From positions 145,886,001-145,950,000 of the forward strand of contig OZ024743.1 in assembly GCA_964016885.1 (NCBI GenBank): a stretch of DNA of 64,000 nucleotides. The letters are read 5' to 3'. Each line of letters starts with the position of its first letter. Position 1 is the stretch's first letter. Positions 2,896 through 55,450 of the stretch are shown here, piece by piece. The notes under the pieces were generated by a model. The model was not told the origin of the DNA and did not search any database. It worked only from the letters and a program-made list of their open reading frames with translations. Origin of the DNA: Eledone cirrhosa. Taxonomy: Eukaryota. A program made the position numbers and the translations under genes.

Positions 2896-2972
2896 TTTTA
2901 AAAATAACTGAAACACATAATCAGTGTATTTCATTAGAAATACAATAATGAAAGACTTAAATCATTTCTTAC

Positions 2973-3361
2973 CTGTAGAAGGGACATAACCGCAGACCAC
3001 CAGTACAAGTGTTTATAAACAGATAAAGTGGCCAACCATACATAGCCATGGCAAATTTCATGTAGTACTTAATTGCACCCAAACCCATCCATCCTTTAGG
3101 CAATACAGTTGAAGAGGACATAGATTCAGGACATCCACCATCATTTATAGAACTCGCATGTGTTGGACTAGATTCACTACTCTCACTACCTTCACCAGAA
3201 ACAAGGATTCGTCCAGTTTCTCTATTGACTGCCTCTCTAGATTTACGACTTTTTGATGGTTGGCTTACTGTTCTGTTAAGAACTAGATTTTTTTGTTGAG
3301 CCTGTCTCCTTTGGAGCAGAAGAAGACCAGCAGCAATATCAGTTGGTACTAAATCAAGGTC
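2973..3361 (-). CDS. DAGLB: Diacylglycerol lipase beta-like, coding exon 5 (gene continues beyond window start)
   Basis: DLDLVPTDIAAGLLLL...YYMKFAMAMYGWPLYLF matches DAGL motifs; TTCCAG acceptor, GTAAG donor; 389 nt, phase 0 to 2. Confidence 0.93.
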
Positions 3362-5088
3362 CTGGAAAATATAAAATAGAAATTCAATATATTCTTTATA
3401 AAAATTTAGAGATTTTGACATGGTAAAACATGAGATTAGACTCACTGAAATAATTTGATATTTAATTCATACAACCAAAAACCACTAACCCTTTAGCATT
3501 CACATTACTCTATATTTACTATTATATTTTCATAGTAAAGGCTTTATTTCACATAATATTGAATCTATGAGATTTTGATATTATTTATTTTGAAAACAAT
3601 ACTTTATTTAACATCAGTATGAGTAGCAAGTTACAGCCGGTTTGAACAGAAGGAGGTGAGAGGATTCTGACCAAATCTGTTTGACAGAAATTTCTCTCCA
3701 CTTTCAGAGCCAAAACATATTTCATGCCTAACCATTTTTCTAATTTTATATAAGAAAGAAAAATCACTCCTTTCCCAAAATATACAACGTTTGTTCTAAA
3801 AAGGTGCTATTTCATTAACATTAGTATTTTTTTAATAACTCAAGAGCAAATTCTAAAATATTCCAAGTTTTAGAGACAATGTAAGGTTAAGAGGACCCTT
3901 AATCTTACTGAGGACATAATGCTGGTGCCACAATAAAAGTATACATTGTAAAGTGGATGGTGTTAGGAAAAACATCCAGCTGTAAAAACCATGCCAAAAA
4001 TGGAACATATGAACAAGAAGTGGTTCTGTAACCCATCAGTCTTCAACTGTGATGACCCATTCAATCTAAGCCTGCATGGAAAGCAGACAAAATCAGTTCT
4101 CTCAATGTTGTAGTTTGATTTAATCCATCTCCAATATATTATGTTAATTTTCTATCAATTCATAATTCACCTTTTATAGTTCAATCAAGACAGTTCCGAT
4201 GTTAAAAAATACATACACTGCTTTACAATGAGTGATTCAAAAAGAACGTTAAGATAAACGAAAAATTTGTCATGTATCACTGAAGTTCTGAAACCAACTC
4301 TTGATTTGGGGTTTATTATTTTCTCTTTTGAATTCTATGAAGAATTGACTGTTTAAGTAATATGAACTCTGGCATATGGCCAAAAATATGTGAGAGGTGG
4401 GCATAGACAATTAAATTTAACCTAGTACATATCTAATAAAAATAAACATAACTACATAGCGTTAAGTATTTTGTCCTGTATTCTACTATTTCTGCGATTT
4501 CACTGCTCTAGCCAGTTTAAGAAATAGAAAAACAATGATTTATAACTTTGAAATAGGAATATAGTTCATTTAATCAAGCCCAATATTGATCCTGGCAGAA
4601 AAGAAAGGAGGATCAATCTCATTAAGATTTCAATTCAGACTGTAAAGCGATGAAACTAAACAAGGTGTTCAGCTTAACACTACCACTGTCCTAATTAACT
4701 TCTAACCCTTTTAATACCAAACCACTTGAAAACACCCCTGGTTCAACAATACAAAACAGTTTATTTTAAACTGTTTATATTTATTAAAAAACCTTCCATC
4801 ATAATCATATATGATGAGAAAGTTAATTATATTTATTACATCCCTCCAAATTCTGGTTTATTTTCAAAATTATTTGAAAATCATAGGCAATGTCTGTCTT
4901 TCATTAGAAATATGATAACAGAAGAATTAAAAATAGTAATTAAATAACAAAGATCCTTTAAAATAGATATAGACAATAAAAATGCAATGCAATGACAACA
5001 TGACATAAAAACATTGCTAATTTGAAATTCATAACAAAAATCTTCCAGCATAAAATCCCCTTTTTTTCTTTAAAATAAGAAAGTTTAC

Positions 5089-6995: not shown

Positions 6996-7100
6996 ATTGC
7001 GTTCTGATCATTTATTCCTATTCTTAGCTAGAAAGTGAACCACAATTATTTAAGCATAGATGACTACACCAATAAATACTGTCTACCAAATAATAATAAT

Positions 7101-7282
7101 AATTGTTTCTACTTTAGGCACAAGGCCAGCAATTATCCAGTGCATTACTGGTACTTTATTTTATCGACCCCGTAAGGATGAAAGGCAAAGTCAACCTCGG
7201 CGGGATTTGAACTCGGATCGTAAAGGGACGTAACTATGCTGGAAAGCATGGTGTCCGACCCTCTACTGATACTGCCAATCCA
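7101..7282 (-). mobile_element. tRNA-derived SINE family A (Meta-domain-like)
   Basis: B-box GAGTTCAAATCCC; central GACTTTGCCTTTCATCCTTACGGGGTCGATAAAATAAAGTACC resembling the MetaSINE/Sauria domain; tail GTAGAAACAATT; about 16 copies in window. Confidence 0.9.
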
Positions 7283-7598
7283 TATAATAATAATGATGAT
7301 TTCTTACATTGATACAAGGACACAAATTTGTAGATACTGATTTTACCATACCTGGAAAGATGAAAGGCACAGCTAACCCAAGAGTATTTGATGACAGATT
7401 ATAGCTAAATACTTTCTCACAATCCCAACTTTGCTTCTCATTCCTATATTCATTGTCATCATCATCATCATTTTTACATATTTGCATATGTAGAATGAAT
7501 CTTCTCCAACAAACCTTCACTTATCTCCTTTGTAAAATTCAGCATAATGAGATTTGCTTTCGACACTTCTGCCCAAGTCTTCCTTAACCTATCTGTAC

Positions 7599-12080: not shown

Positions 12081-12459
12081 AATGAATTAACTGTTGCCCC
12101 CATGAAACTAGAGTACCAGTCAACCAATAAATTGAATTCTCAGTAAATGTTTGTTGTTATTTTTACTTATAAATTGTGGAGCTGATGAAAAGAGACTGCC
12201 GGAAATATGGATAGGTCTTACCACAAACGAGGGACGAGTGATGTCACAGTAGGGTTCAGGTGACTATCACGGCCTCTTTTCATCAGGCCATAGCCAGATA
12301 CGGACATATTATGATTGTGTGCATGAGAGGCTCTGTAATTCTCGGTCGGATGTAAATTACATAAATCTACCTCCCAACATAAATCCATATATAAATATAT
12401 ATGTGTGTGTGCATGCGTGTATTTGTTCAAATAGTTCAATAACCAAATATAATATTTAC

Positions 12460-12707
12460 CAAGTATGTTCCAGATAAGTTCAGGCATTCCAAGGAGAACT
12501 TTTAGATAGAGGAAATATGGTAGCTTTCTTCGAGGAAACGTGTTGGTAATATTCCCTTTCATACTTATACTGATTATACCTATAGTCAAAATAATGCTGA
12601 TTGAAAGAAGAGTAATAACTCCAATGTAGTATGTCCATAACAGATGTCCATCATTGCAACTGAAGGCTTCTTTGTGGTGATTAAAAACCACAATTATAGC
12701 AATCAAC
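12460..12707 (-). CDS. DAGLB: DAGLB-like coding exon 2 (TM2-3)
   Basis: (W)LIAIIVVF...ISMKGNITNTFPRRKLPYFLYLKVLLGMPELIWNIL resembles DAGLB SMRGTI..PR..LYIRL..PE.VW; TAG acceptor, GTAAAT donor; 248 nt. Confidence 0.93.
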
Positions 12708-13615
12708 CTAAATAACAAAAAGATAATAGAAGTGATCAATTATATTTTTCATAGATATACACAAAATTATCCAAAAAAAGTAAAATAAAACCAGCCATAA
12801 TTTCTTGTGCTTTCTCTCCTGTAACAATTCCTACCATTTTTGTTATTGTTTAGTAAAGAGGAAAAACAGTAACCATGACTCTTTTCAAGGCCTCTGGAAC
12901 AAGTGGGCAGGGATAGGTATCCTCTAAATGGGGACCTGACCCGAATGTTTGCAACACTGCATTCTGCTAAAGGTATCCAAGGCCAAGGAGGTGATATCAA
13001 ACTCAATGAAAGGTTACTTCTACAACTAACATAGGCTATGGTTGTATTTGAACTTAGAACTTAAAGAACCAGAACAAATACTGCAAGCTTGATGCTCTAA
13101 CAATTCTGCTAGTTCACCACTCTAGACAGGCACTTTATTTATTGACCTTGGAAAGATGACAAGCAAAGTTAATTTCAAGTTTAATTCAAGATTAAACAAC
13201 AATCTCCATATTTTTCCAAGTATATAATGATGTCTTGGATTTTAAGGATTTGGGGGGGTGGGGGGGTTAATATCATCTCTAATTGTTTTTTAGGTAATAT
13301 TCCTGAGTTAAGATAGTTATTGAACTTGAAACCTTTATTTTACTGTCTGATCATCTAACTGGAGGACATTAGTGATATCAGAACAGACCAAATGTTCTAA
13401 AAACAATGGAGACAAATGCTTAAATATAATGCTTAAACTTTAAAAACTGTGTTTTTATAAAATATATTTCATATAATCATACAATAACACAAGCACAATT
13501 GTTTCTAATTAGTGTTTTTTAGAGGATATTCAGCAGAAAGGAAGGAATAAATTTGACATAAAAGTAAACAAATTCAACAGCACCTTAAAAGCAATTTACT
13601 TTTCCTTTACTTGTC

Positions 13616-13792
13616 TGGCAGTATCAGTAGAGAGTCGAATGCCATGCTTTCCAGCATAGTTACGTCCCTTTACGGTCTGAGTTCAAATCCCGCCGAGGTT
13701 AACTTTGCCTTTCATCCTTACGGGGTCGAAAAATAAAAGTACCAGTAATGTACTGGGTAATTGCTGGCTTTGTGCCAAAAGTAGAAACAATT
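13616..13792 (+). mobile_element. SINE family A copy
   Basis: Same B-box, central domain and tail as 7101-7282. Confidence 0.9.
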
Positions 13793-13946
13793 ATATATAA
13801 CTGTCTTCAACACAACTTTTTTAATACAATATGTTTAACTTCACTAAAGTTCACCATACAGTAAGTGCAGTCTTGGATCCAATACTACAGATTCAATAAC
13901 TGAAAAGATTATCTTACTTGGGAACTTTATTCTAAAGTCTGTCTCA

Positions 13947-27578: not shown

Positions 27579-27581
27579 AAT

Positions 27582-27764
27582 AATTGTTTCTACTTTAGGC
27601 ACAAGGCCAGCAATTACCCAGTGCATTACTGGTACTTTATTTTATCGACCCTGTAAGGATGAAAGGCAAAGTCAACCTCGGCGGGATTTGAACTCAGATC
27701 GTAAAGGGAAGTAACTATGCTGGAAAGCATGGCGTCCGACCCTCTACCGATACTGCCAATCCAC
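27582..27764 (-). mobile_element. SINE family A with 10-bp TSD
   Basis: TAGTAATAAT at 27575-27584 and 27765-27774. Confidence 0.9.
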
Positions 27765-27921
27765 TAGTAATAATAATAAATGTGAAGACTAAAATCCGAA
27801 GAGGGCTCGATAAAGATAATATATAAAAAACCGTAGAGCAAATATTTATTAAAAAGATCCCATTAAGGGTGAAAGCAGCGATTCTTTGCTTAAACTTTAA
27901 TCTGTTATTTTAATAAATATA

Positions 27922-28609: not shown

Positions 28610-29330
28610 TACAGTGCTCATGTGCACTACAACTCATCAAAGATAAATGTATAGCACATAGAATAACTGTTTCTACTTTAGGCACAAGGCCAGCAATCAC
28701 CCAGTGCATTACTGGTACTTTATTTTATCGACCCCGTAAGGATGAAAGGCAAAGTCAACCTCGGCGGGATTTGAACTCAGATCGTAAAGGGACGTAACTA
28801 TGCTGGAAAGCATGGTGTCTGACCCTCTACCGATACTGCCAATCCACCACCCTCTAGCACATAGAATAACGTACAACAGTTACGAAAGTAAACAGTGTAT
28901 GAGTCATGATACACACACAGATACATGCGTGTGTGTGCATGGAGGAGGAATATCAGGTGTAGTGTTGGCGAATTTCGGAAAGCATGGAAGTTTTGAAATA
29001 TGCAGTGTTTTGACAGCTAACAACTGATGCAGGTAGTTTGTTCCATGCTTCAGCAACTCTGAGCATGAAAAAATGTTTCCGAAAATCATGGGAGCTGTGC
29101 TGTTTTCTGACTTTCTAGGCATGCCATGGGTGTTAGACATATGGAATTCAAAAAGGTGCTGAGGGTTGTTGTTGGAAAGATGGTTAATAACCTTGTGGGT
29201 GTCTACTAAGTCAGTTGCCAGATGTCGGAGTTTTAATATATCCATGCCCAGAGAAGCAAGACATTCAGAGTATGGTAGATGCCTGAGGGAGGGTATTCGC
29301 TTGGTCGCACATCTCTGAACAATTTCCAAT
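28610..29330 (-). mobile_element. CR1 LINE 3' fragment (family of 41866-45050) interrupted by a SINE
   Basis: VQRCATKRIPSLRHLPYSECLASLGMD matches ORF 41974-43266; shared 3' UTR GTGCTCA.GTGCACTACAACTC. Confidence 0.9.
28668..28854 (-). mobile_element. SINE family A inserted in the CR1 3' UTR, 16-bp TSD
   Basis: TAGCACATAGAATAAC at 28652-28667 and 28855-28870. Confidence 0.92.
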
Positions 29331-30830: not shown

Positions 30831-31135
30831 AATTGTTTCTACTTTTGGCACAAGGCCAGCAATTACTCAGTGTATTACTGGTACTTTATTTTATCGACCC
30901 CATAAGGATGAAAGGCAAATCTAACCTCGGTGGGATTTGAACTCACTTTTAAATAATTGTTTCTAGTTTAGGCACAAGGCCAGCAATTACCCAGTGCATT
31001 ACTGGTACTTTATTTTATCGACCCCGTAAGGATGAAAGGCAAAGTCAACCTCAGCGGGATTTGAACTCAGATCGTAAAGGGACATAACTATGCTGGAAAG
31101 CATGGCGTCCGACCCTCTACTGATACTGCCAATCC
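30831..31135 (-). mobile_element. Tandem SINE family A (truncated plus full) with triplicated target sequence
   Basis: CACTTTTAAATAAT at 30820, 30944 and 31135. Confidence 0.9.
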
Positions 31136-33654
31136 ACTTTTAAATAATATTGCTTACTTGGAGAAGTGTGTATTTGTCTATCTTTATGTAACATTCTGTT
31201 AGTCTGTCTACCTATCTTTATGTATTCTTACTGTTATTGTATTATAAGACAGTGGAAACAGGCATACATACAAAAGTGAAACCTGTATATAGTCACTGAA
31301 CCTGTTATAAATAGCAACAAAATCACACCCTATCATCTTAAAGAAATCTTGAATAATGTAATCCTAGATATACTCTTAAAAACACAAGAAGCTAATGGTC
31401 AAAATAATTCTTATCAAAGATACTTTAGTTATGCTAGCTATGCATGCAGATAAAACATTGATTAAGGATCTATTACTCACAAAACACTGTCTTATTGAAG
31501 GCATGAATTATTTTTTGAAGTAGAAGCAGTTGGTTGCTGATTTGGTATGGGGATGGACAAAATACCTTGCAGTAGGTTCAAATCCTGCTAGTATTAACTT
31601 TGTCTTTCATTCTTCCCCAAAAATATTGAGCCAATTTAATGAACTGCGCCATCACACAAAGTATATTATGAATTTATCTTTTTATTATGCTTAATAGTAG
31701 AATAAAAAATATAATCCATAAAATCAACAAATTTAAACTCAAAATATTTTACAGAAAATGACACTCGTGAGATTACACACTTTATAGGATGGTAGAAAAA
31801 TTGTTCTAAAGCTTTTATTTCTCACTCAATCTCAAAACTAATTATTGATGAAGATACCAACCCATCCAAAACCACCTCTGGTCCCATAGATCAAAACATT
31901 ACCTGTGTAAATTAAAATCTTCCTACATAATTTTATATAGCAATCATACATTATGTTGCAAACACCATCTTAATAATTATATAATTTTAGTAAAACCCTC
32001 CAAATTCTTCATTAATCAATTCAAATACAGTGTACATTATTTGAGCTATGGTAATGAAAGGGTTAATGTAAATGTCCTCTGTTTACTTGATTTTAATGTT
32101 TACCACAATTTTATTTCTCCTGATGATATTTGACATTACACTCAAATTACAAATTGACATCATTCATGATGTTATTAATGTTGTAAAGTTCCAGCTTCCA
32201 TTTTTGTTAGTTGCTTGTCCATTTAAGACAAAGGTTTGTTTGTTTTTAATCAAGATGGCTCCTACTACCTCCTCATGCTGCATATTTTTACTTTTGGGGA
32301 AGATTTTGTATTTCTTTCTATTTTCCTTTGTATAGAATATATTCCTATGCATTCAAAAATATTTGCCTCTACATTCTGTTAGGATTTGAGACATGAAAAA
32401 GGGGACTGATGTTGCCCCAATGGTAGATGGAGAGAACAGATCCTAAAATGGTCTCCATGTTAATTATGGGAAGAATTCAATGCAATGACTACAAACAGGA
32501 ATAAAGTGAGGAAACACATTTCATACTCTGCTGTAAGCCGAAACAACAATTAGCTGATATAGAGTGTTTGAAATATGCAGTGACTGTTACCCTACTTTAT
32601 AGTTTGAGCAGAGGCACTTATAGCATCTATTCGTCCTTCACAACCTCAGCCTTATGGAACTTAGCATGGCCATAGTTTCTAAAACGCATTTCCAGCTCTG
32701 ATTATATAGTTTTTTGTTGTTGTTGTTGTTGTTTGTTTTGTTTTTTTGTTGTTTTTTTGTTATCTTTTATGCATACAACTTTGGCAGTATGCTTTATCAA
32801 AGGAAATTATTGGAAATGAGAAATTACTTCCCTTTAACTGAAAATAAGAATAAAGTTAATTGAGATAGTTCACTATAAATTGAGTATTGAGATATTATAG
32901 AAATGCATATGGAATAAATAACTGATATTTATTTGTAATTTAACAAAAGCAAAAAACAGAAGATAAAAATAAATATATTTATTTGCAAATATTGATTTCC
33001 AAATGACGTTTTAGAAAGTATAGTTACATGCATATATATTTACAAATTAATTTTATTTTAAAATGCAGTATTGAGTTTTAGTAAAGTAGTGTTCAGTTTT
33101 GAAACATATTTTCTAATTGATCATTGAAAATAAGATTGATAATCATATAATGACTTTTGTTCTGATTTATAAAATGCTCTTTTAATATGATAAATGCTAA
33201 AACAATCTTTCGGGCACATATTAACCATATATGAGCACCATGTTGTTATGTGTGAACATTTTTCTTACTATCATACTTTTATTTAGACATGTAAAACATC
33301 TGCAATGTCCCCCTTTTTTTAGTTCCTGTTGATAACATGCAGTCTTTCCTAGAAATTTACAGCCCAAAACCTATCAATATTGCTTTTAGCAACAAGCTGC
33401 CAAATAACATCTCTATTGAAATCTATAAATTTGATAAAAACTATTCCTTTTCCTTGATAAGTACCTATTGTACTTGTTCAGCATTGTTGACTTATTATGT
33501 TGAGAAAGAGTGTTGACTGATTTTCTAAAACATCTCATTCCAGGTCGACATGCATTTAGGCTTTTGCAAGTTTTCAATGACTCAATATGTTTTGTTTTGT
33601 TTTGTTTTTTCTTATTTCTAAGTATTTCATTTGTTCAAGGAGTTATTTTGTCCC

Positions 33655-35147: not shown

Positions 35148-37440
35148 TATCATCATCATCATCACCATTTTACGTCCGCTTTTCCCTGCTTGCAAGGTGG
35201 GATGGGTCCTATTTAGCACAGCATCTCTCCACTTCATCATATCCTCGGTGAGTTTCAGTGATCTGAGGTCTGCTCTCACCACCTCCACCCATGTTTTTCG
35301 TGGTCTTCCTCTACTGCGTCTTTCTTCAACTGGCATTTCTTGGCACTTCTTTACCCAGCAGTCATCCTCCATGCACATCACATGTCCATACCATCTCAGT
35401 CTTCTCTCCTGCACACACAACTTATCCCTCCTATACCCAGTTTCTCTCTCAACTCATCTATGCTTGGTCGTTCACGTACATTGACATTGCACATCCAACG
35501 GAGCATGCTTGCTTCATTTCTCTCCAGCCGTCACATATCCTCTACAGTTGCTGCCTATGTCTCACTACCATGCAGCATCGCGCATCTCACATAGGCATCA
35601 TATAACCAGCCTTTCGTGCGCAGGGAGAAACCCTTCTTTGTCAACAGAGGAAGCAGCTCCTTAAACTTCTTTCAACCCGTCCTTATTCTAGATACTATGG
35701 TCTCGGAACACCCCCCACCGCCTCCCATGCTAATCTGATCACCTAGGTACCGGAAGCTATCACCCACTTTTATAGAACCCACCTGCATTTGAAAAATGTG
35801 TCTATCACTGCGATTACTACTGCCAAATTTCCCTGCACATCTACTGCATACGTAGTTTTCCCTACCTGTTAGTTTGCCTGCTATCCCACTACATCTCTTA
35901 TGTACCCAAGATCTGCATTGCATACATTTTATAGAATTTATGCCAGTTCCGTTTCTATATATCGGACATGGCCATTTCCCTGATGGAATCAGAGTTTAGT
36001 CCTCTCTTCTACTTATCAACACTTTTGTCTTAGCTATGTTCACTCTGTCCTCTTGATTTCAACTGCTGTTTCCAAAGCCAGAATTTATTCTCTAGCTCCT
36101 CTACTGATTCTGGTATAAGAACCAGATCATCAGCATAGAGAAGTTCCCATGGGCATCCAGTCTTAAACTTCTGTTATGTCTTGGAGGACTATAATGAACA
36201 AGAGCAGGCTGAGGACCTACTTGTATCTGGAATTCCTCACTAAACTCCATTCCTACCCTCACTTTACTGACAGCACCTCTGTACATAGCTTGCACTGTCC
36301 TCACATGCCATTCCTCTACACCTAGTTTCCTTAGGGATCACCAGATGACAGATCGGGTTACCCTATCAAAGGCCTTCTCTAGGTCAACAAAAGCGAAGTA
36401 TAGTGGCTTATTCTTCTCTAAGAACTTCTCTTGTAGTTGTCTCACTAAGAAGAGGGCATCTGTTGTACTTTTCTGAGGCACAAAACCAAACTGCATCTCA
36501 TCTAATTTGACCCTTTCTCTAATCAGTTGCGTTAATATTCTCTGTGCCACTTTCATAACCAAATCCATCAGTTTTATGCCCCTATAATTGCTCCTCTCCA
36601 GAGCATTCCCTTTACCTTTGTAGCAATTTATGAGAATACTGCTGCGCCAGTCTTTGGGTATGACACCACCATATATAACTTGATTGACAATGCGTACAAC
36701 CAGTTTAGTGCCTACTTCTCCTGATGCCTTCAGCATCTCAGCAACTATCCCCGATGGTCTGGCAGCCTTACCATTTTTCATTTCCTTAATTGCCTCTTGA
36801 ACCCTATATTCGTCAATCTCAATAGCTGGTCCCTCTGTCGGGTCTACTGGGGGTAATTTCTCTCTCCCATTCGTTCTCCACATTCATCAGTCTCTCATAA
36901 TGACATTCCCAGGCCTCCTTTTTTTATCATTCATGACACTAAGTACACCGGCATCATTCGGGACACACTTATCTCCAACAACATCCTGATTTGCACTGAC
37001 ACACTCCCTTGCAATGCGGAACACCACACATCTCTGATCTTCCCGTCGCAGAACATTGGCAAACCTACTACTCTAAGTACACCTGACGTCTAGCTTCTCT
37101 CTTAGCAGCTGTGTATCCTTCTCTACTCCCACCATTTTTCCAAGCGTTCCATGCTAGTCTTTTGTCTCTAATGGCCCTATCTACCATGCTGTTCCACCAC
37201 CAGGTCACTCTCTGTCTGGTTGGAGCTCTGCTCCAGCCACAAGTTTCTTCAGTAGCCTGCAGTAAGTTGTCACGTAAGAAATTCCAGTTATCATCTATGT
37301 CATACGACTCTAAATTGTCTTCTTTTTCGTCATACACATCTTGAAGGCTTTCCTAAATTTATATTTTAGTGAAAGGTCTTTTAGCTTCCAGACCTTTCTT
37401 TTCCACACCTTCCTGTATGTCTCATTCCGTCTCTTGCTTA
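35148..37440 (-). mobile_element. RTE-clade LINE, 5'-truncated and frameshifted, with a PHD-like Cys/His insert
   Basis: NYRGIKLM, QFGFVP..STTDALF, FVDLEKAFDRV, QERRLRWYGHV, RGRPRKTW; CMQCRSWVHKRC..VCSRC; (GAT)n tail. Confidence 0.93.
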
Positions 37441-41865: not shown

Positions 41866-44800
41866 TAATAATAATAATGAAATTATTGTGTAAAGTGCTC
41901 AGGTGCACTACAACTCGTCAATATAGTACATAGAATAATACACAAATGCCAGGGAAGTACATGTTTGTATGTGTTAGCTGTAGTGTTGGCGGATCTCGGG
42001 AAGCATGGAGGCCTTAAAGGATGCAGCGTCTCGACAGCTAACAACTGATGCAGGTAGTTTGTTCCATGCTTCAGCAACTCTGAGCGTGAAAAAATGTTTC
42101 CGAAAGTCATGGGAACTGTGCTGTTTTCTTACTTTGTGGGCATGTCCACGTGTGTTAGACACATGGAAATCGAAAAGGCACTCAGGGTTGTTGTTGGCAA
42201 CATGGTTAACAATTTTGTGGGTGTTTACCAAGTCAGTTGCCAGGCGTCGGAGCTTCAATGAATCCATGCCCAGGGAAGCAAGGCGATCAGAGTATGGTAG
42301 ATGCCTGATGGAGGGTATTCGCTTGGTTGCACGTCTCTGAACAGTTTCCAGGCGGTCAATGTCCTGAGCAAGATAGGGGTTCCAGACTGGTGATGCAAAT
42401 TCTAAGTGTGGTCGCACCATAGCTGTATACAGCCTTAAATAGATATCTGGAGAGCGGCTGACAAAGGTCTTGCTGAGTGATGCTAAGACACCCTCGGCCC
42501 TCTTGACAATTTTAGAGACGTGCCTCGTCCAACGCAAATCGCTGCTGACCGTAATGCCCAGGTCACGTTCACAGGAAGACTTCTTGATATTAGTGCTGTG
42601 GAGGGAATATGTGGACGCTGGGTTTTTACTCCCAAAATGCATGGTGGTGCACTTGTCCACAGCTAGCTTGAGTTGCCAGTCTGAGATCCACTGTTGCATT
42701 GTGTCCAGGTCAGACTGCAAGCAAGATCTATAGTGTTCAGGATCTGTCCTTTTTATCTCAAGGTACAGCTTGATGTCGTCTGCGTACTTTAGTACTGTGG
42801 CATTCCTTAAGTTGGCATCTATGTCATTAATATATGCCACAAACAAAAGGGGGCCAAGAACAGATCCCTGAGGTACACCAGATGACATCTCATATGGTGA
42901 GGAATGCTGTCCCAGAACCGTGACTACCTCTCTTCGACTGAGAATGAAGGACTTCAACCAGTTAAAAAGATCATCCTTCACACCCATTGCAGAGAGTTTT
43001 GCCATAAGCCTTTTGTGCGGCACAGAATTGAAGGCCTTCGCAAAGTCAAGGTAAACAACATCCACCCATGAGCCGCCATCAGTGATCCGGGTGATGTCCT
43101 CAAGAAACTCTATAAGTTGATCACAGCAGCTGGAGTTGGGGATAAATCCAAATTGCGAAGGCCGGATAAGACTGTGAGAGCTCCAGAAGTTCCAAAGTGT
43201 TTCTCTGACACAGGATTCCATCAGTTTGGCGATGCAACTAGTAAGACTGACTGGACGATAGTTCACAGGTGATGTGCGGTCACCCTTTTTGAACAGAGGA
43301 ATTACACTGGCAGTTTTCTACTGTTCTGGAGTAGCACTGTTGTTCAGACAGAATTGGAAGAAGCGTGATAACTGGTGTAGAAGGAAGTACCCACCACATT
43401 TAAGAAGCAGGTACGTAACACCATCAAGACCAGGAGAGGCATGGTTGCGTTTATTTTTTAGGTGACGTCGCAGCATTGCAGGTGTAAATTCCATGGTTGT
43501 AATAGAGTCCGGTGTCATAGGTGGTGGAGATGGTACACTCTGGTCTTCAATGGTGAAAATGCCTGCATAGCATTCAGCAATGAGCTCTGCGCATTCCTTG
43601 GGGTCGTCAGTAACCTGGCTTGTGTGGGGATTGCGAAGAGGACCAACTGGAGAGTGAGGCCTCTGCTTTGAGTGAACATACTTCCAGAACACCTTACTGT
43701 CAGGGCTGGTTGCTATGCGCTGCTCAAATTGAAGCACTGCCTTTTTTGTCACCTGTTTGAGGTGGTTGGACGATCTATTTCGCCTCTTCCTATTAATGTC
43801 TGATTTGTGAAGTTTGTACTCACGTTCAGCATTGCGCCGTTCTTTTCTGGCAAGACGGACTGCTGCAGTCTCCCAAATTGCGCTTTTAGGATGTTTTTTC
43901 CGCTTACGTGGCACCGATGCTGCACATGCTGTCCATATTGAGCTCAGGATGTTCTGGAGTACAGTGTTGACATCTCCAGAGTCATAGAACTCAAGCCAGT
44001 TTGGCCGTTGCAACTCGGTGCAGTAACAGTTCCAGTCTGCTCTATTCCAGTCAAAGTGAGCAGTTTGGAGATGGTTGTGGTTTTTGTTACTGCCCATGAG
44101 GGATAGATTGGCAATGATCATAGCATGATCAGAGTCACCTAAAGGTTCCTCAGCAGTAACACTAATGACCGTTTCAGGAGTAGTGGTGAAGAGTAGGTCC
44201 AAAGTGTTGTCACCTCTCGTTGGGGAGGTGACCACCTGGGACCAACTCGAGTCCAGCACCAGCTCAAGGAAGTCATTTGCACTTGGCGGCCAACGAAAGG
44301 TCTCCCAGTCAATCTCAGGGTGATTGAAGTCACCTGCAATGAAAACATAAGTGGCTGTCTTCCTGGCAGCAGCTCTGAGGATATCACAAAGTTGAGTGTC
44401 CTGATGGTAATTTGGGGGACGGTAAACGACTCCAAGTAGCAGTGTTGACATGGTCATACGTATATCGCAGAAAAAAACTTCCTGCTGTGATTGGTTCAAA
44501 TCAGCACAAGGAATTGCCGACAGATTTGACCGAACGTAGACCATTACACCACCACCACGACGATCAATACGGTCTTTACGAAACAGGTTGTAGCCAGTCA
44601 TGCTGAAAACCCCATCACAGAGTAAGGGATGTGCCCAAGTTTCCGTGACTGTAATGAAGTCCGGGTTGATACTTTTGACGTAGGAGTCAAAAAGATGAAT
44701 CTTATTGCATAGACTACGTGCATTCAAGGACAACAGTTTGTACTTTGATTCCAGTCTATGATTATGTGCAGGGGATGGCAGGTTGTTCTGATTTAGTTTC

Positions 44801-45050
44801 CCAGAGTTTTTTCAGTTTCTTTATTGTCAGTTGTTGTGGGTACACTGTTTTCAGACCAGCTGGTGTCTCTTTTCCATGATTCGCCAGCCTTAACAAACCT
44901 CCATATCTGCCCATCATCTCGTAGGCTGAAGCTTTCATGTTCTGCCGAGCTGCGGTTTAGGGAAGCTGCAGCATGCAACTTTGGGCGGACATCAGGTGGA
45001 AGACCAGGACGTGTTCGGAAAGCAATTCCAGATTGTATGGCTTTCTAACG
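41866..45050 (-). mobile_element. CR1-clade LINE: ORF1 C-terminal remnant, near-complete ORF2, 3' UTR and (ATT)n tail
   Basis: APE motifs SLNARSL, ITVTETW, RKDR..RRGGGV, YRPP, GDFN, LDL, SDH; RT motifs NYRPVSLTS, YLDFAKAF, GVPQGSVLGP, YADD; CR1-type C-terminus. Confidence 0.96.
41974..44796 (-). pseudogene. CR1 ORF2 (EN+RT) with one in-frame TAG at 43318-43320
   Basis: ORFs 43318-44733 and 41974-43266 share a frame, linked by PEQ*KTASVIPLFKKGDRTSPVNYRP. Confidence 0.92.
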
Positions 45051-51473: not shown

Positions 51474-51846
51474 TATAATAATAATATACTTTTACCAACA
51501 TTAAAATTCCAAATTAAAAATCAAAAGGTACAATATATACATGTATATATGTGCGCACACACACACACACACATATAACAACACACATATCTATGTTCGA
51601 CTACACAGAAATTAAGCCCTATTAGAAGTTTGAATATTAAAAATAAGCATGGTAATAGTGAAAATAATACTAATACATCTACCCAATATACATGAGGCAA
51701 TAATATGATATAATTACAAGAAACACATATAACAAATAATAAACAACAAAATTATATAATTCAATATAATATAATACATGTATATATTGTACCTTTTGAT
51801 TTTTAATTTGGAATTTTAATGTTGGTAAAAGTATATTATTATTATA
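51474..51846. repeat. 73-bp perfect inverted repeat (51474-51546 / 51774-51846)
   Basis: TATAATAATAATATACTTTTACCAACATTAAAATTCCAAATTAAAAATCAAAAGGTACAATATATACATGTAT and its reverse complement. Confidence 0.93.
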
Positions 51847-52111
51847 ATGTATTATATTGTGTTATATATAATTCCTGCTCTATATAACCAAATTTGTTTA
51901 GATTTAGGTTGGTTGCTTTGGACTATATTTGTAATATGGTTCTTAATGTTATCTACATCCTTAGTTATTCTTATTATATATTTTTATTATTTTTATCTTT
52001 ATTTTCATTTTTATTATCGTATATCTTTGTAAGACATTAGTGTATGTACACTCCATATTCTTCAGAGTTTCTGGCTTGTATCTGCCGATATTACCTCTTG
52101 TTGTTTTGATT

Positions 52112-52149
52112 GCCCTGATGAGTCCTTAATAGGACGAAACATTGTCGGC
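52112..52149 (+). ncRNA. Minimal type I hammerhead ribozyme (HHR1)
   Basis: GCC CTGATGA GTCCT TAAT AGGAC GAAA CATTG TC GGC: intact core, GUC site (cleavage after 52146); followed by AATAAA. Confidence 0.88.
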
Positions 52150-52197
52150 TAATAAAAACTTTTGATGTATTAAAGGATTCTTTGTTTTACTCTCTTA

Positions 52198-52239
<42 letters not shown>

Positions 52240-52386
52240 TTTGAGTATATGTTGGTTGTATACCAACACCTCGATATGCAGATTGGAGCACTCGACGAAG
52301 TGCGCAGGTTGGTTTGGTTACTCCGGAGTAATGTAAAATAAAATAAAATAAATAAGTCAAATGTTTAAAATTTGGCTTCGTTTATT

Positions 52387-52441
52387 ACTGCTATATATAT
52401 TTCGGTGACAGCCATCTTTGGCTGTCACCTCTTCAGGCAGT
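52387..52441 (-). ncRNA. Minimal type I hammerhead ribozyme (HHR2, left arm of palindrome)
   Basis: Exact reverse complement of 52629-52683. Confidence 0.85.
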
Positions 52442-52628
52442 CCGAATTAGTGTGGTAGAGACGAGTACACATGTTGTTGAGGTGTTTAACTTTGTCAATA
52501 CTCTGATATTCCCAGTTCCTGGTTGGGTTGTTGTTTCACTAACCCAACTAGAAACTGGGCATATCAGAGTATTGACAAAGTTAAACACCTCAACAACATG
52601 TGTACTCGTCTCTACCACACTAATTCGG

Positions 52629-52683
52629 ACTGCCTGAAGAGGTGACAGCCAAAGATGGCTGTCACCGAAATATATATAGCAGT
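52629..52683 (+). ncRNA. Minimal type I hammerhead ribozyme (HHR3, right arm)
   Basis: ACTGC CTGAAGA GGTGACAGCC AAAGAT GGCTGTCACC GAAA TATATA TA GCAGT: 5-bp stem I, 10-bp stem II, palindromic stem III; cleavage predicted after 52678. Confidence 0.85.
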
Positions 52684-52720
52684 AATAAACGAAGCCAAAT
52701 TTTAAACATTTGACTTATTT

Positions 52721-52771
<51 letters not shown>

Positions 52772-52822
52772 TACAATTCAATGATATTAAATAAATGGAA
52801 ACTATATTTATAAAAGCATATT

Positions 52823-54871: not shown

Positions 54872-55450
54872 CAGACCTGCCAACCTCTAAAAACCCAAAC
54901 GGGCAGTACCATGAAAAAAAGTGACCCAAAACGTTGAGAAATGAGGCTAAATGGGGAGATTTTACATAATTGTTTCTACTTTAGGCACAAGGCCAGCAAA
55001 TACCCAGTACATTACTGGTACTTTATTTTATCGACCCCGTAAGGATGAAAGGCAAAGTTAACCTCGGCGGGATTTGAACTCAAACTGTAAAGGGACGTAA
55101 CTATGCTAGAAAGCAGTGCGTACAACCCTCTACTGATACTGCCAATTCACCGCCCTAGAGGGGAGATTTTACATAATTGTTTCTACTTTTGGCACAAGGC
55201 CAGCAATAATCCAGTACATTACTGGTACTTTATTTTATCGACCCCCGTAAGGATGAAAGGCAAAGTTAACCTCGGCGGGATTTGAACTCAGACCGTAAAG
55301 GGACGTAACTATGCTAGAAAGCATGGCAGCCAACCCTCTACCGATACGGCCAAATGAAAGCTATACCCATTTTCACAAGAAATCCATCTCTCATCCACCC
55401 AAAAGTGGGTGGGAGATTTCCCCGTCGGACGGGGAGAGTTGACGGGTCTG
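54872..55450. mobile_element. hAT-like MITE inside the Merlin relic, carrying two SINEs
   Basis: TIRs CAGACCTGCCAAC / GTTGACGGGTCTG; no TSD seen. Confidence 0.55.
54968..55353 (-). mobile_element. Two tandem SINE family A copies
   Basis: Left copy flanked by 18-bp TSD GGGGAGATTTTACATAAT (54953-54970, 55160-55177). Confidence 0.92.

What the first reader, a model, noticed from the sequence alone, without database searches (positions are those of the whole stretch)
52237..52727. 371-bp palindrome with an identical hammerhead on both strands (ambisense rod-like unit)
Seen: the 180-bp arms are perfect except at three positions within 20 bp of the loop. The minus copy keeps a roughly 110-nt longer 3' tail (to 52237), while the plus copy stops in (TTTTA)n before (TA)n. 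A transcript of either strand has an antisense ribozyme first and a sense ribozyme second, and folds into a viroid-sized rod. Inference: most likely an inverted pLTR made by fold-back self-priming or template switching, as known for PLE insertions. The three loop-proximal mismatches could be the original imperfect priming hairpin, with the perfect part newly copied. The fold would sequester the ribozyme and give long dsRNA for ADAR or Dicer.
Basis: partly seen in the sequence, partly recalled or inferred. Interest (0 to 1): 0.85.

Follow-up and report, generated by a model that had tools for sequence, protein, structure and literature searches.

The report
Stub of a Penelope-like retrotransposon insertion
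This palindrome is the short, head-to-head stub of a common Penelope-like jumping gene sitting in a TA repeat, a shape shared by dozens of sister insertions sampled from the same genome and likely made by copying one RNA from both sides of the cut target, so it is an ordinary mobile-element footprint rather than a viroid-like unit.

Summary
In detail: 180-bp arms with three mismatches, an 11-nt loop, an identical type I hammerhead on each strand, and a tail on one arm. It is a 5'-truncated insertion into (TA)n of a Hydra-clade Penelope-like element (PLE). Longer copies carry an 892-aa RT plus GIY-YIG ORF with all Hydra motifs. Its 37-nt hammerhead stretch occurs 1,485 times in the genome. Of 83 sampled loci, 37 are head-to-head and 25 have the hammerhead on both strands; the same layout is published for Penelope-13_HM. 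The window's junction is unique, so the rod does not spread as a unit. The three mismatches are rare substitutions, not a retained priming hairpin. All 38 sampled pairs join a tailed arm to a tail-less arm, both arms usually share a haplotype (26 of 28), and in 19 of 38 the tail-less arm reaches further 5'. This favours twin priming at two fixed sites on one RNA (about 0.6) over fold-back self-priming (about 0.3). Ordinary as a feature; useful as a test set for the open question of how PLE inversions form.

The parts
52198..52236 (.). left (TA)n tract, insertion target, shared with the neighbouring element
52237..52540 (-). tailed arm (A): last 303 nt of the PLE, from family position -302 to the fixed 3' end A (position 0)
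   Evidence: 95-98% identical to the 39 best other copies; the 30 fetched all end at this site in (TA)n
52237..52333 (-). the 'tail' between fixed end B and fixed end A, about 97 nt; in tandem copies end A runs on into a 54-nt leader and the ORF start
52387..52441 (-). type I hammerhead in the tailed arm, predicted cut between 52392 and 52391
52350..52529 (-). left 180-bp arm of the palindrome
52530..52540 (.). 11-nt loop: bases present only in the tailed arm; blunt junction at 52540/52541, unique in the genome
52541..52727 (+). tail-less inverted arm (B): family position -291 to about -100, ending in (TTTTA)n at fixed end B
52629..52683 (+). type I hammerhead in the tail-less arm, predicted cut after 52678
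52726..52773 (.). right (TA)n tract, insertion target

Best explanation
The palindrome is a short, 5'-truncated insertion of a Hydra-clade Penelope-like retrotransposon into a (TA)n tract, with one tailed and one tail-less arm head to head, and it was likely made by twin priming: the element's protein would cut both target strands and copy one RNA from two fixed sites about 95 nt apart, and the two short cDNA ends would then be joined. Shown: family membership, the two fixed ends, the TA target, the tailed-plus-tail-less rule, and shared haplotypes of the two arms. Inferred: that the two ends are reverse-transcription start sites (by analogy with the anole PLE in vitro), that one RNA serves both, and that cDNA ends are joined with 0-8 nt of microhomology. 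The double hammerhead is a by-product, because the ribozyme lies 55-110 nt upstream of end B and is copied into any arm long enough. In a read-through transcript the rod is predicted to keep it unfolded, so the copy is most likely inert. Identity as a PLE stub about 0.97; twin priming about 0.6.
For: Copies 97% identical at the 3' end run on into a GIY-YIG endonuclease and RT (L031, L034; Pfam GIY-YIG E=0.004, below cut-off). A sister subfamily, 88-90% identical in this region, has an intact 892-aa ORF with RWK, DKT, YRDD, CxCX5C, CxxC and CxH, the Hydra diagnostics of PMC8557442. In 83 loci from contig C1, 121 of 137 arm ends fall at end A (64) or end B (57). 37 loci are head-to-head, and 38 of 38 pairs are A+B with none A+A or B+B; random pairing would give about half. 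In 19 of 38 pairs the tail-less arm reaches more than 10 nt further 5' than the tailed arm, so neither arm is a plain copy of the other. In L084 the arms share no sequence, and L090 has a tailed arm of about 30 nt. Long examples agree: L031, L063, L068. Arms of one insertion share the three-site haplotype in 26 of 28 pairs against about 11 discordant expected; mismatch at polymorphic columns is 0.0029 within against 0.016 between insertions. Of 36 junctions resolved, 24 show 0-8 nt overlap and 12 show inserted or unassigned letters (3 skipped). PMC11167929 shows in vitro that a PLE cuts and extends both strands and starts at two internal sites that bound the tail, with a predicted dimer.
Against: The window's own copy is nearly symmetric (-302 against -291) and cannot tell the models apart. 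12 of 38 pairs have 5' ends within 10 nt of each other, several centred on a CATATG palindrome, as self-priming predicts. Shared haplotype is also what fold-back or later arm-to-arm conversion predicts. The excess of longer tail-less arms (19 against 7, p=0.03) fades to 20 against 10 (p=0.10) when four loci left unpaired by the script are added by hand. One-sided deletions at palindrome centres (recalled) could make unequal arms later. PMC11167929 saw no difference in start site between strands, so the A+B rule needs the extra one-RNA assumption. Two pairs (L002, L119) have discordant haplotypes, which fits two RNAs or later conversion, not one RNA. The pile-up of 5' ends at -326..-317 (37 of 118) is unexplained.
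Confidence: 0.6

Rival explanations
1. Fold-back or self-priming (the first reader's model; PMC3846280 proposes self-priming on an antisense template). One cDNA or RNA end folds back and is extended into a hairpin, which the endonuclease resolves at sites A and B; unequal arms come from long-range fold-back or later central deletion.
For: Arms share haplotypes and private variants. 12 of 38 pairs are nearly symmetric and several are centred on a CATATG palindrome at the base of the native hairpin. PMC3846280 reads junction palindromes this way. PMC8557442 ascribes the tail to endonuclease resolution. The window's copy is nearly symmetric.
Against: 19 of 38 pairs have a tail-less arm with 5' sequence that the tailed arm lacks, by up to 880 nt, and L084 has no shared sequence. 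Many junctions have 0-1 nt of microhomology (11 of 36). In the window the junction is blunt and the last 13 nt of the would-be primer are unpaired. The three mismatches are rare substitutions. Tail-less arms also occur without an adjacent tailed arm.
Confidence: 0.3
2. The palindrome arose after insertion, by inverted duplication during replication or repair, or from two separate insertions in one (TA)n tract, and the arms were later evened out by conversion.
For: (TA)n tracts collect several PLEs (a second family sits in the left tract). The distal 160 bp are perfect and both arms share a rare G (6 of 159 arms), which conversion could explain.
Against: No (TA)n at the centre. The inverted arm ends at the family's fixed site B. 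37 of 83 loci have the same layout and none is A+A or B+B.
Confidence: 0.06
3. A self-propagating ambisense, viroid-like or retrozyme-like rod RNA that is cut by its ribozymes and circularised.
For: Viroid-like size and a rod fold; a hammerhead in each polarity.
Against: The junction occurs once in 3.0 Gb and sister junctions differ. The unit is not in head-to-tail tandem. Each strand has only one sense ribozyme, so no unit-length excision. The rod removes stems I and II. The short palindromic stem III is of the kind that needs a dimer (PMC4209133).
Confidence: 0.02
4. Fold-back chimeric read or assembly artefact.
For: No spanning read or contig was obtained; contigs of four runs break into short pieces over the repeat.
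Against: The flanks differ on the two sides, the arms differ at three sites, one arm has a tail, both ends are the family's fixed ends, and the layout recurs in 37 of 83 loci with different centres.
Confidence: 0.02

Closest known systems
Hydra-clade Penelope-like elements (Craig et al. 2021, PMC8557442), especially Penelope-13_HM and Hydra-1_Obim
   Same: C-terminal GIY-YIG, RWK, DKT, CxCX5C linker, CxxC and CxH, (TA)n target, 3' type I hammerhead. Supplement files S1 and S2 list Penelope-13_HM with a 5'-truncated inverted copy and the same hammerhead on both strands.
   Different: Longer: about 4.2 kb and 892 aa with two low-complexity inserts, against generally under 3 kb. Tail about 95 nt against 30-40. 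Its hammerhead differs from the one listed for Hydra-1_oBim, so it is another family; the proteins were not compared.
Adineta vaga Pen2a/Pen2/Pen3a and D. virilis-type inverted pLTR with tail (Arkhipova et al. 2013, PMC3846280)
   Same: Inverted 5' pLTR head to head, tail on one arm only, palindrome at the pLTR 5' end, low-complexity insert between RT core and thumb in Pen3 and Pen4.
   Different: Those have target-site duplications and 31-nt tails and include ORF codons in the pLTR. Here both ends lie upstream of the ATG and any duplication is hidden in (TA)n. That paper favours self-priming.
PAc (Poseidon, Anolis) in vitro system (Frangieh et al. 2024, PMC11167929)
   Same: Two internal start sites bound the tail; both strands are cut and extended; AT-rich target; ribozyme cleavage is not needed (here 2 of 118 5' ends lie at the cut site).
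   Different: Other clade; start sites inside the ORF; the sections read do not explain inverted arms or an A+B rule.
Metazoan non-LTR retrozymes (PMC7229834; bioRxiv 10.64898/2026.07.22.740005)
   Same: Size of about 300 nt, type I hammerhead, PLE link.
   Different: Retrozymes are head-to-tail tandem units that give circular RNAs. This is a head-to-head stub with a unique junction.

Membership tests
Penelope-like elements (EN+) | single ORF with RT and GIY-YIG endonuclease | tested here: met
   892-aa ORF in L062; 36% identity over 511 aa to P0024, which has Pfam RVT_1; GIY-YIG E=0.004, below cut-off. Pfam gave no hit on the whole 892-aa protein. The window's stub has no ORF; the link is by continuous longer copies L031 and L034.
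Penelope-like elements (EN+) | 5' truncation, partial tandems (pLTR), inverted 5' copy, tail at one end | tested here: met
   60 exact tandem junctions in the sister subfamily
Penelope-like elements (EN+) | type I hammerhead in the pLTR | tested here: met
   motif and fold; not matched by Rfam Hammerhead_1
Penelope-like elements (EN+) | self-cleavage activity of the hammerhead | not testable with these tools
   needs an in vitro assay
Hydra clade | C-terminal EN; RWK and DKT motifs | tested here: met
   RWK at aa 37, DKT at 120, GIY-YIG-like motif at 772; criteria from PMC8557442
Hydra clade | CxCX5C linker; CxxC and CxH around the conserved E and N | tested here: met
   aa 752, 850, 878
Hydra clade | absence of CCHH, of the Naiad CxC domain and of IFD | tested here: inconclusive
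   not seen on reading the protein; no alignment to reference PLEs was made
Hydra clade | insertion into (TA)n | tested here: met
Hydra clade | placement in the RT phylogeny with reference Hydra elements | not tested
   reference proteins were not available as tool sequences
Non-LTR retrozyme | head-to-tail tandem units, each with a sense hammerhead | tested here: not met
   one sense hammerhead per strand, head-to-head
Non-LTR retrozyme | expressed as circular RNA | not testable with these tools
   no RNA reads were laid
Viroid-like ambisense ribozyme RNA | ribozymes in both polarities on a rod | tested here: met
   formally met, but only because the DNA is a palindrome
Viroid-like ambisense ribozyme RNA | unit replicated as a whole, with foldable ribozymes bounding a monomer | tested here: not met
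   junction unique; stems absent in the rod

The most novel reading that the evidence does not exclude
This family gives genomic evidence for a strict rule of PLE integration: one RNA, two fixed start sites, one per target strand, so that every inverted insertion pairs a tailed with a tail-less arm (38 of 38) of the same haplotype (26 of 28). That would replace self-priming as the source of PLE inverted repeats and tie the tail and the inversion to one twin-priming step. With intact 892-aa ORFs in the genome it could be tested directly. It would also seed an estimated several hundred near-perfect hairpins that could feed ADAR or Dicer if transcribed.
Probability: 0.45. Interest if true: 0.55.

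Novelty: new member of a known kind. Interest (0 to 1): 0.27.

Why it matters
As a single locus it matters little: it is one of an estimated 600 head-to-head stubs (45% of about 1,340 loci, extrapolated), and a hammerhead on both strands of an inverted PLE copy is already in print. The family matters somewhat more. PMC8557442 names the formation of tandem and inverted PLE structures as unresolved. Here a young, high-copy family with a long tail, two clean ends and intact ORFs lets the competing models be scored on dozens of insertions and tested in vitro. It also warns scans for viroid-like RNAs that 'rod with ribozymes in both polarities' can be a plain PLE footprint.

Tried and rejected
Rfam at gathering score: nothing; at E up to 5 only the neighbouring hammerhead and chance microRNA-hairpin matches. 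Homologue search with the endonuclease piece among longer proteins: none. Pfam and PDB sequence searches with the full ORF: none. Sequencing runs: no RNA holder listed; contigs of four runs cover the repeat in short pieces and none listed spans the junction, so read support stays open. Idea that the 5'-end pile-up at -320 is a transcription start: in the sister subfamily 0 of 30 pLTRs upstream of the ORF begin at -326..-317 (one at -329), so not supported. Idea that it reflects one short master copy: both haplotypes have such ends (14 and 19 of 38), so rejected. Idea that ribozyme-cut RNA is the usual template: 2 of 118 5' ends at the cut, so rejected. Loop-proximal mismatch gradient: none; the window's cluster (p about 0.0015 alone, chosen after the fact) is left as chance or partial conversion of the distal arms. 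Earlier findings by sequence and by place: none. Host-gene exons were not confirmed by Pfam or PDB.

Full report
Observation. The palindrome is as described. Arms 52350-52529 and 52541-52720 pair except at 52510/52560, 52518/52552 and 52521/52549, around an 11-nt loop. Each arm holds the same type I hammerhead (52629-52683 on +, 52441-52387 on -). The minus arm continues to 52237, and both ends meet (TA)n. Folded whole, either strand is a rod of about -350 kcal/mol with no hammerhead stems; the right arm alone forms stems I and II with probability 0.77 and 0.98. Rfam does not score this hammerhead. Its short palindromic stem III is the type that PMC4209133 (passages seen) describes as needing a dimer and cleaving weakly.

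What it is. The minus arm found 1,232 candidates in the 3.0-Gb genome; the 40 scored were 95-100% identical, and the 30 fetched all end at the same base in (TA)n. A 37-nt hammerhead stretch occurs 1,485 times, its reversed control never. Longer copies of the same subfamily run on into a GIY-YIG endonuclease and an RT, broken in the copies read (L031, L034). The RT piece found a sister subfamily, 88-90% identical to the window in the 3' region, with open frames up to 896 aa. L062 encodes 892 aa with RWK, DKT, YRDD, a CxCX5C linker, the GIY-YIG motif, CxxC and CxH. These are the diagnostics of the Hydra clade in PMC8557442 (passages, outline, section 15 and supplement part 2 of 59 seen). That supplement lists Penelope-13_HM with a 5'-truncated inverted copy and the same hammerhead on both strands, so the headline feature is known. 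The host is an animal, probably an octopod; this is inferred from a weak named hit (41% identity, Argonauta) and recalled genome features, and was not tested.

Anatomy of insertions. I numbered positions from the 3' end (A = 0). I took 95 of the first 100 listed hammerhead matches on contig C1 (five not fetched, and the last stretch, L162, was picked out of order because it was a visible pair). Removing four overlapping fetches, two duplicates and one second half of an insertion left 83 loci. Of 137 arm ends, 64 are at A and 57 at a second site B (about -93 to -110); both end in T/A-rich letters and join (TA)n. 37 loci (36 of 82 without L162) are head-to-head, giving 38 pairs, all A+B. By hand count, 25 of 83 loci carry the whole hammerhead on both strands, as the window does. 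In tandem copies A runs on into a 54-nt leader and the ATG, so A and B are internal to the RNA. The window's copy is an A arm from -302 joined bluntly to a B arm from -291 (the latter read by eye because two substitutions stopped the script early). This junction occurs once in the genome.

The three mismatches. Non-palindromic copies have a native hairpin at about -320 to -272, but in another register, and the window lacks its 5' strand. The three variants are rare among 126-129 arms; one is in the left arm and two in the right. Three in 175 columns is below the family mean of 3.5%, and across the pairs with 40 or more shared columns (sample loci plus the first 30 best hits, duplicates removed; 9 of 48 pairs had too little overlap) mismatches are not enriched near the centre. 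The would-be primer end is unpaired. The priming-hairpin reading therefore fails. The clustering in this one copy is chance or partial conversion of the distal arms.

How it likely forms. PMC11167929 (parts 1 and 2 of 4 read; supplementary figures not seen) shows a PLE protein cutting and extending both target strands and starting at two internal sites that bound the tail. The A+B rule, the 19 of 38 pairs whose tail-less arm reaches further 5', a pair with no shared sequence (L084) and a tailed arm of about 30 nt (L090) fit two primings. Haplotype agreement in 26 of 28 pairs points to one RNA, which would also explain why A+A and B+B are missing. Against this: 12 of 38 pairs are nearly symmetric, several at a CATATG palindrome; PMC3846280 (passages seen) reads such junctions as self-priming; shared haplotypes fit fold-back too; the length bias is not significant once four hand-added loci are counted; two pairs are discordant; and the window's own copy cannot decide. 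I put twin priming at 0.6 and self-priming with endonuclease resolution at 0.3. The pile-up of 5' ends at -326..-317 (37 of 118) is unexplained: it is not a start seen in tandem copies of the sister subfamily and not one master.

Function. Most likely none. The unit is not copied as a whole, has one sense ribozyme per strand, and is predicted to bury it. It differs from retrozymes, which are head-to-tail tandems giving circles (PMC7229834, passages seen; bioRxiv 10.64898/2026.07.22.740005, part 1 of 5 read, supplements closed). If transcribed it would be a 180-bp duplex suited to ADAR or Dicer (established knowledge), but transcription is untested. Read support for the junction is also open, though an artefact is unlikely given unequal flanks and family-typical ends.

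Novelty. A new family of a known clade showing a known structure. Searches for a twin-priming account of PLE inversions (listings only, except the papers named above) showed none. Older papers on D. virilis Penelope cited in these works were not seen and may hold one, as may supplements I could not read. An earlier AI finding in a shark genome (e1-7858806) reports similar stubs; it is a lead, not support. Interest 0.27.

Noticed in passing
window 51474-52197: A second, very young Hydra-type PLE family (1,709 candidates, best copies 99-100% identical) sits in the same (TA)n tract. It has a canonical hammerhead at 52109-52153 (+; Rfam Hammerhead_1 E=7e-6), its own tail of about 100 nt and tail-less end, and an inverted 5' piece. 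Its ORF is about 34% identical to L062's in the C-terminal part.
   Followed up: partly
family positions -326..-317 (e.g. L075, L098, L136, L150): Strong pile-up of 5' ends (37 of 118) at a CATATG palindrome at the base of a native hairpin, in both arm types and in solo copies; cause unknown.
   Followed up: partly
window 52646 and 52424 (family position -188): Most copies have a C-C mismatch in hammerhead stem II; the window has a G in both arms that perfects the stem, a variant seen in 6 of 159 arms, possibly recurrent hairpin correction.
   Followed up: partly
L002/L003 and L119: The two arms of one insertion carry different subfamily haplotypes, suggesting two template RNAs or later conversion.
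   Followed up: partly
L062:3119-5794: The intact ORF has two low-complexity inserts absent from homologue P0024, one between RT core and thumb region and one before the linker, like the N-rich inserts of Adineta Pen3/Pen4.
   Followed up: no
L037: Short pieces of the element interleaved with long degenerate (TA)n, repeated in tandem.
   Followed up: no
window 19442 (-), 12218-12739 (-), 2969-3466 (-): Exon-like frames that resemble a diacylglycerol lipase (name recalled, not confirmed); the likely start codon is 33 kb from the palindrome.
   Followed up: partly
window 45271 (-): A third, degenerate hammerhead-like motif.
   Followed up: no
window 7098-7305, 13616-13810, 27579-27786, 28662-28869, 30952-31159, 54965-55380 and others: A dispersed family of about 200 bp in both orientations, SINE-like (label recalled).
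   Followed up: no
window 41974-44811 (-), 36338-36883 (-): LINE-like endonuclease and RT frames (labels from reading the translation).
   Followed up: no
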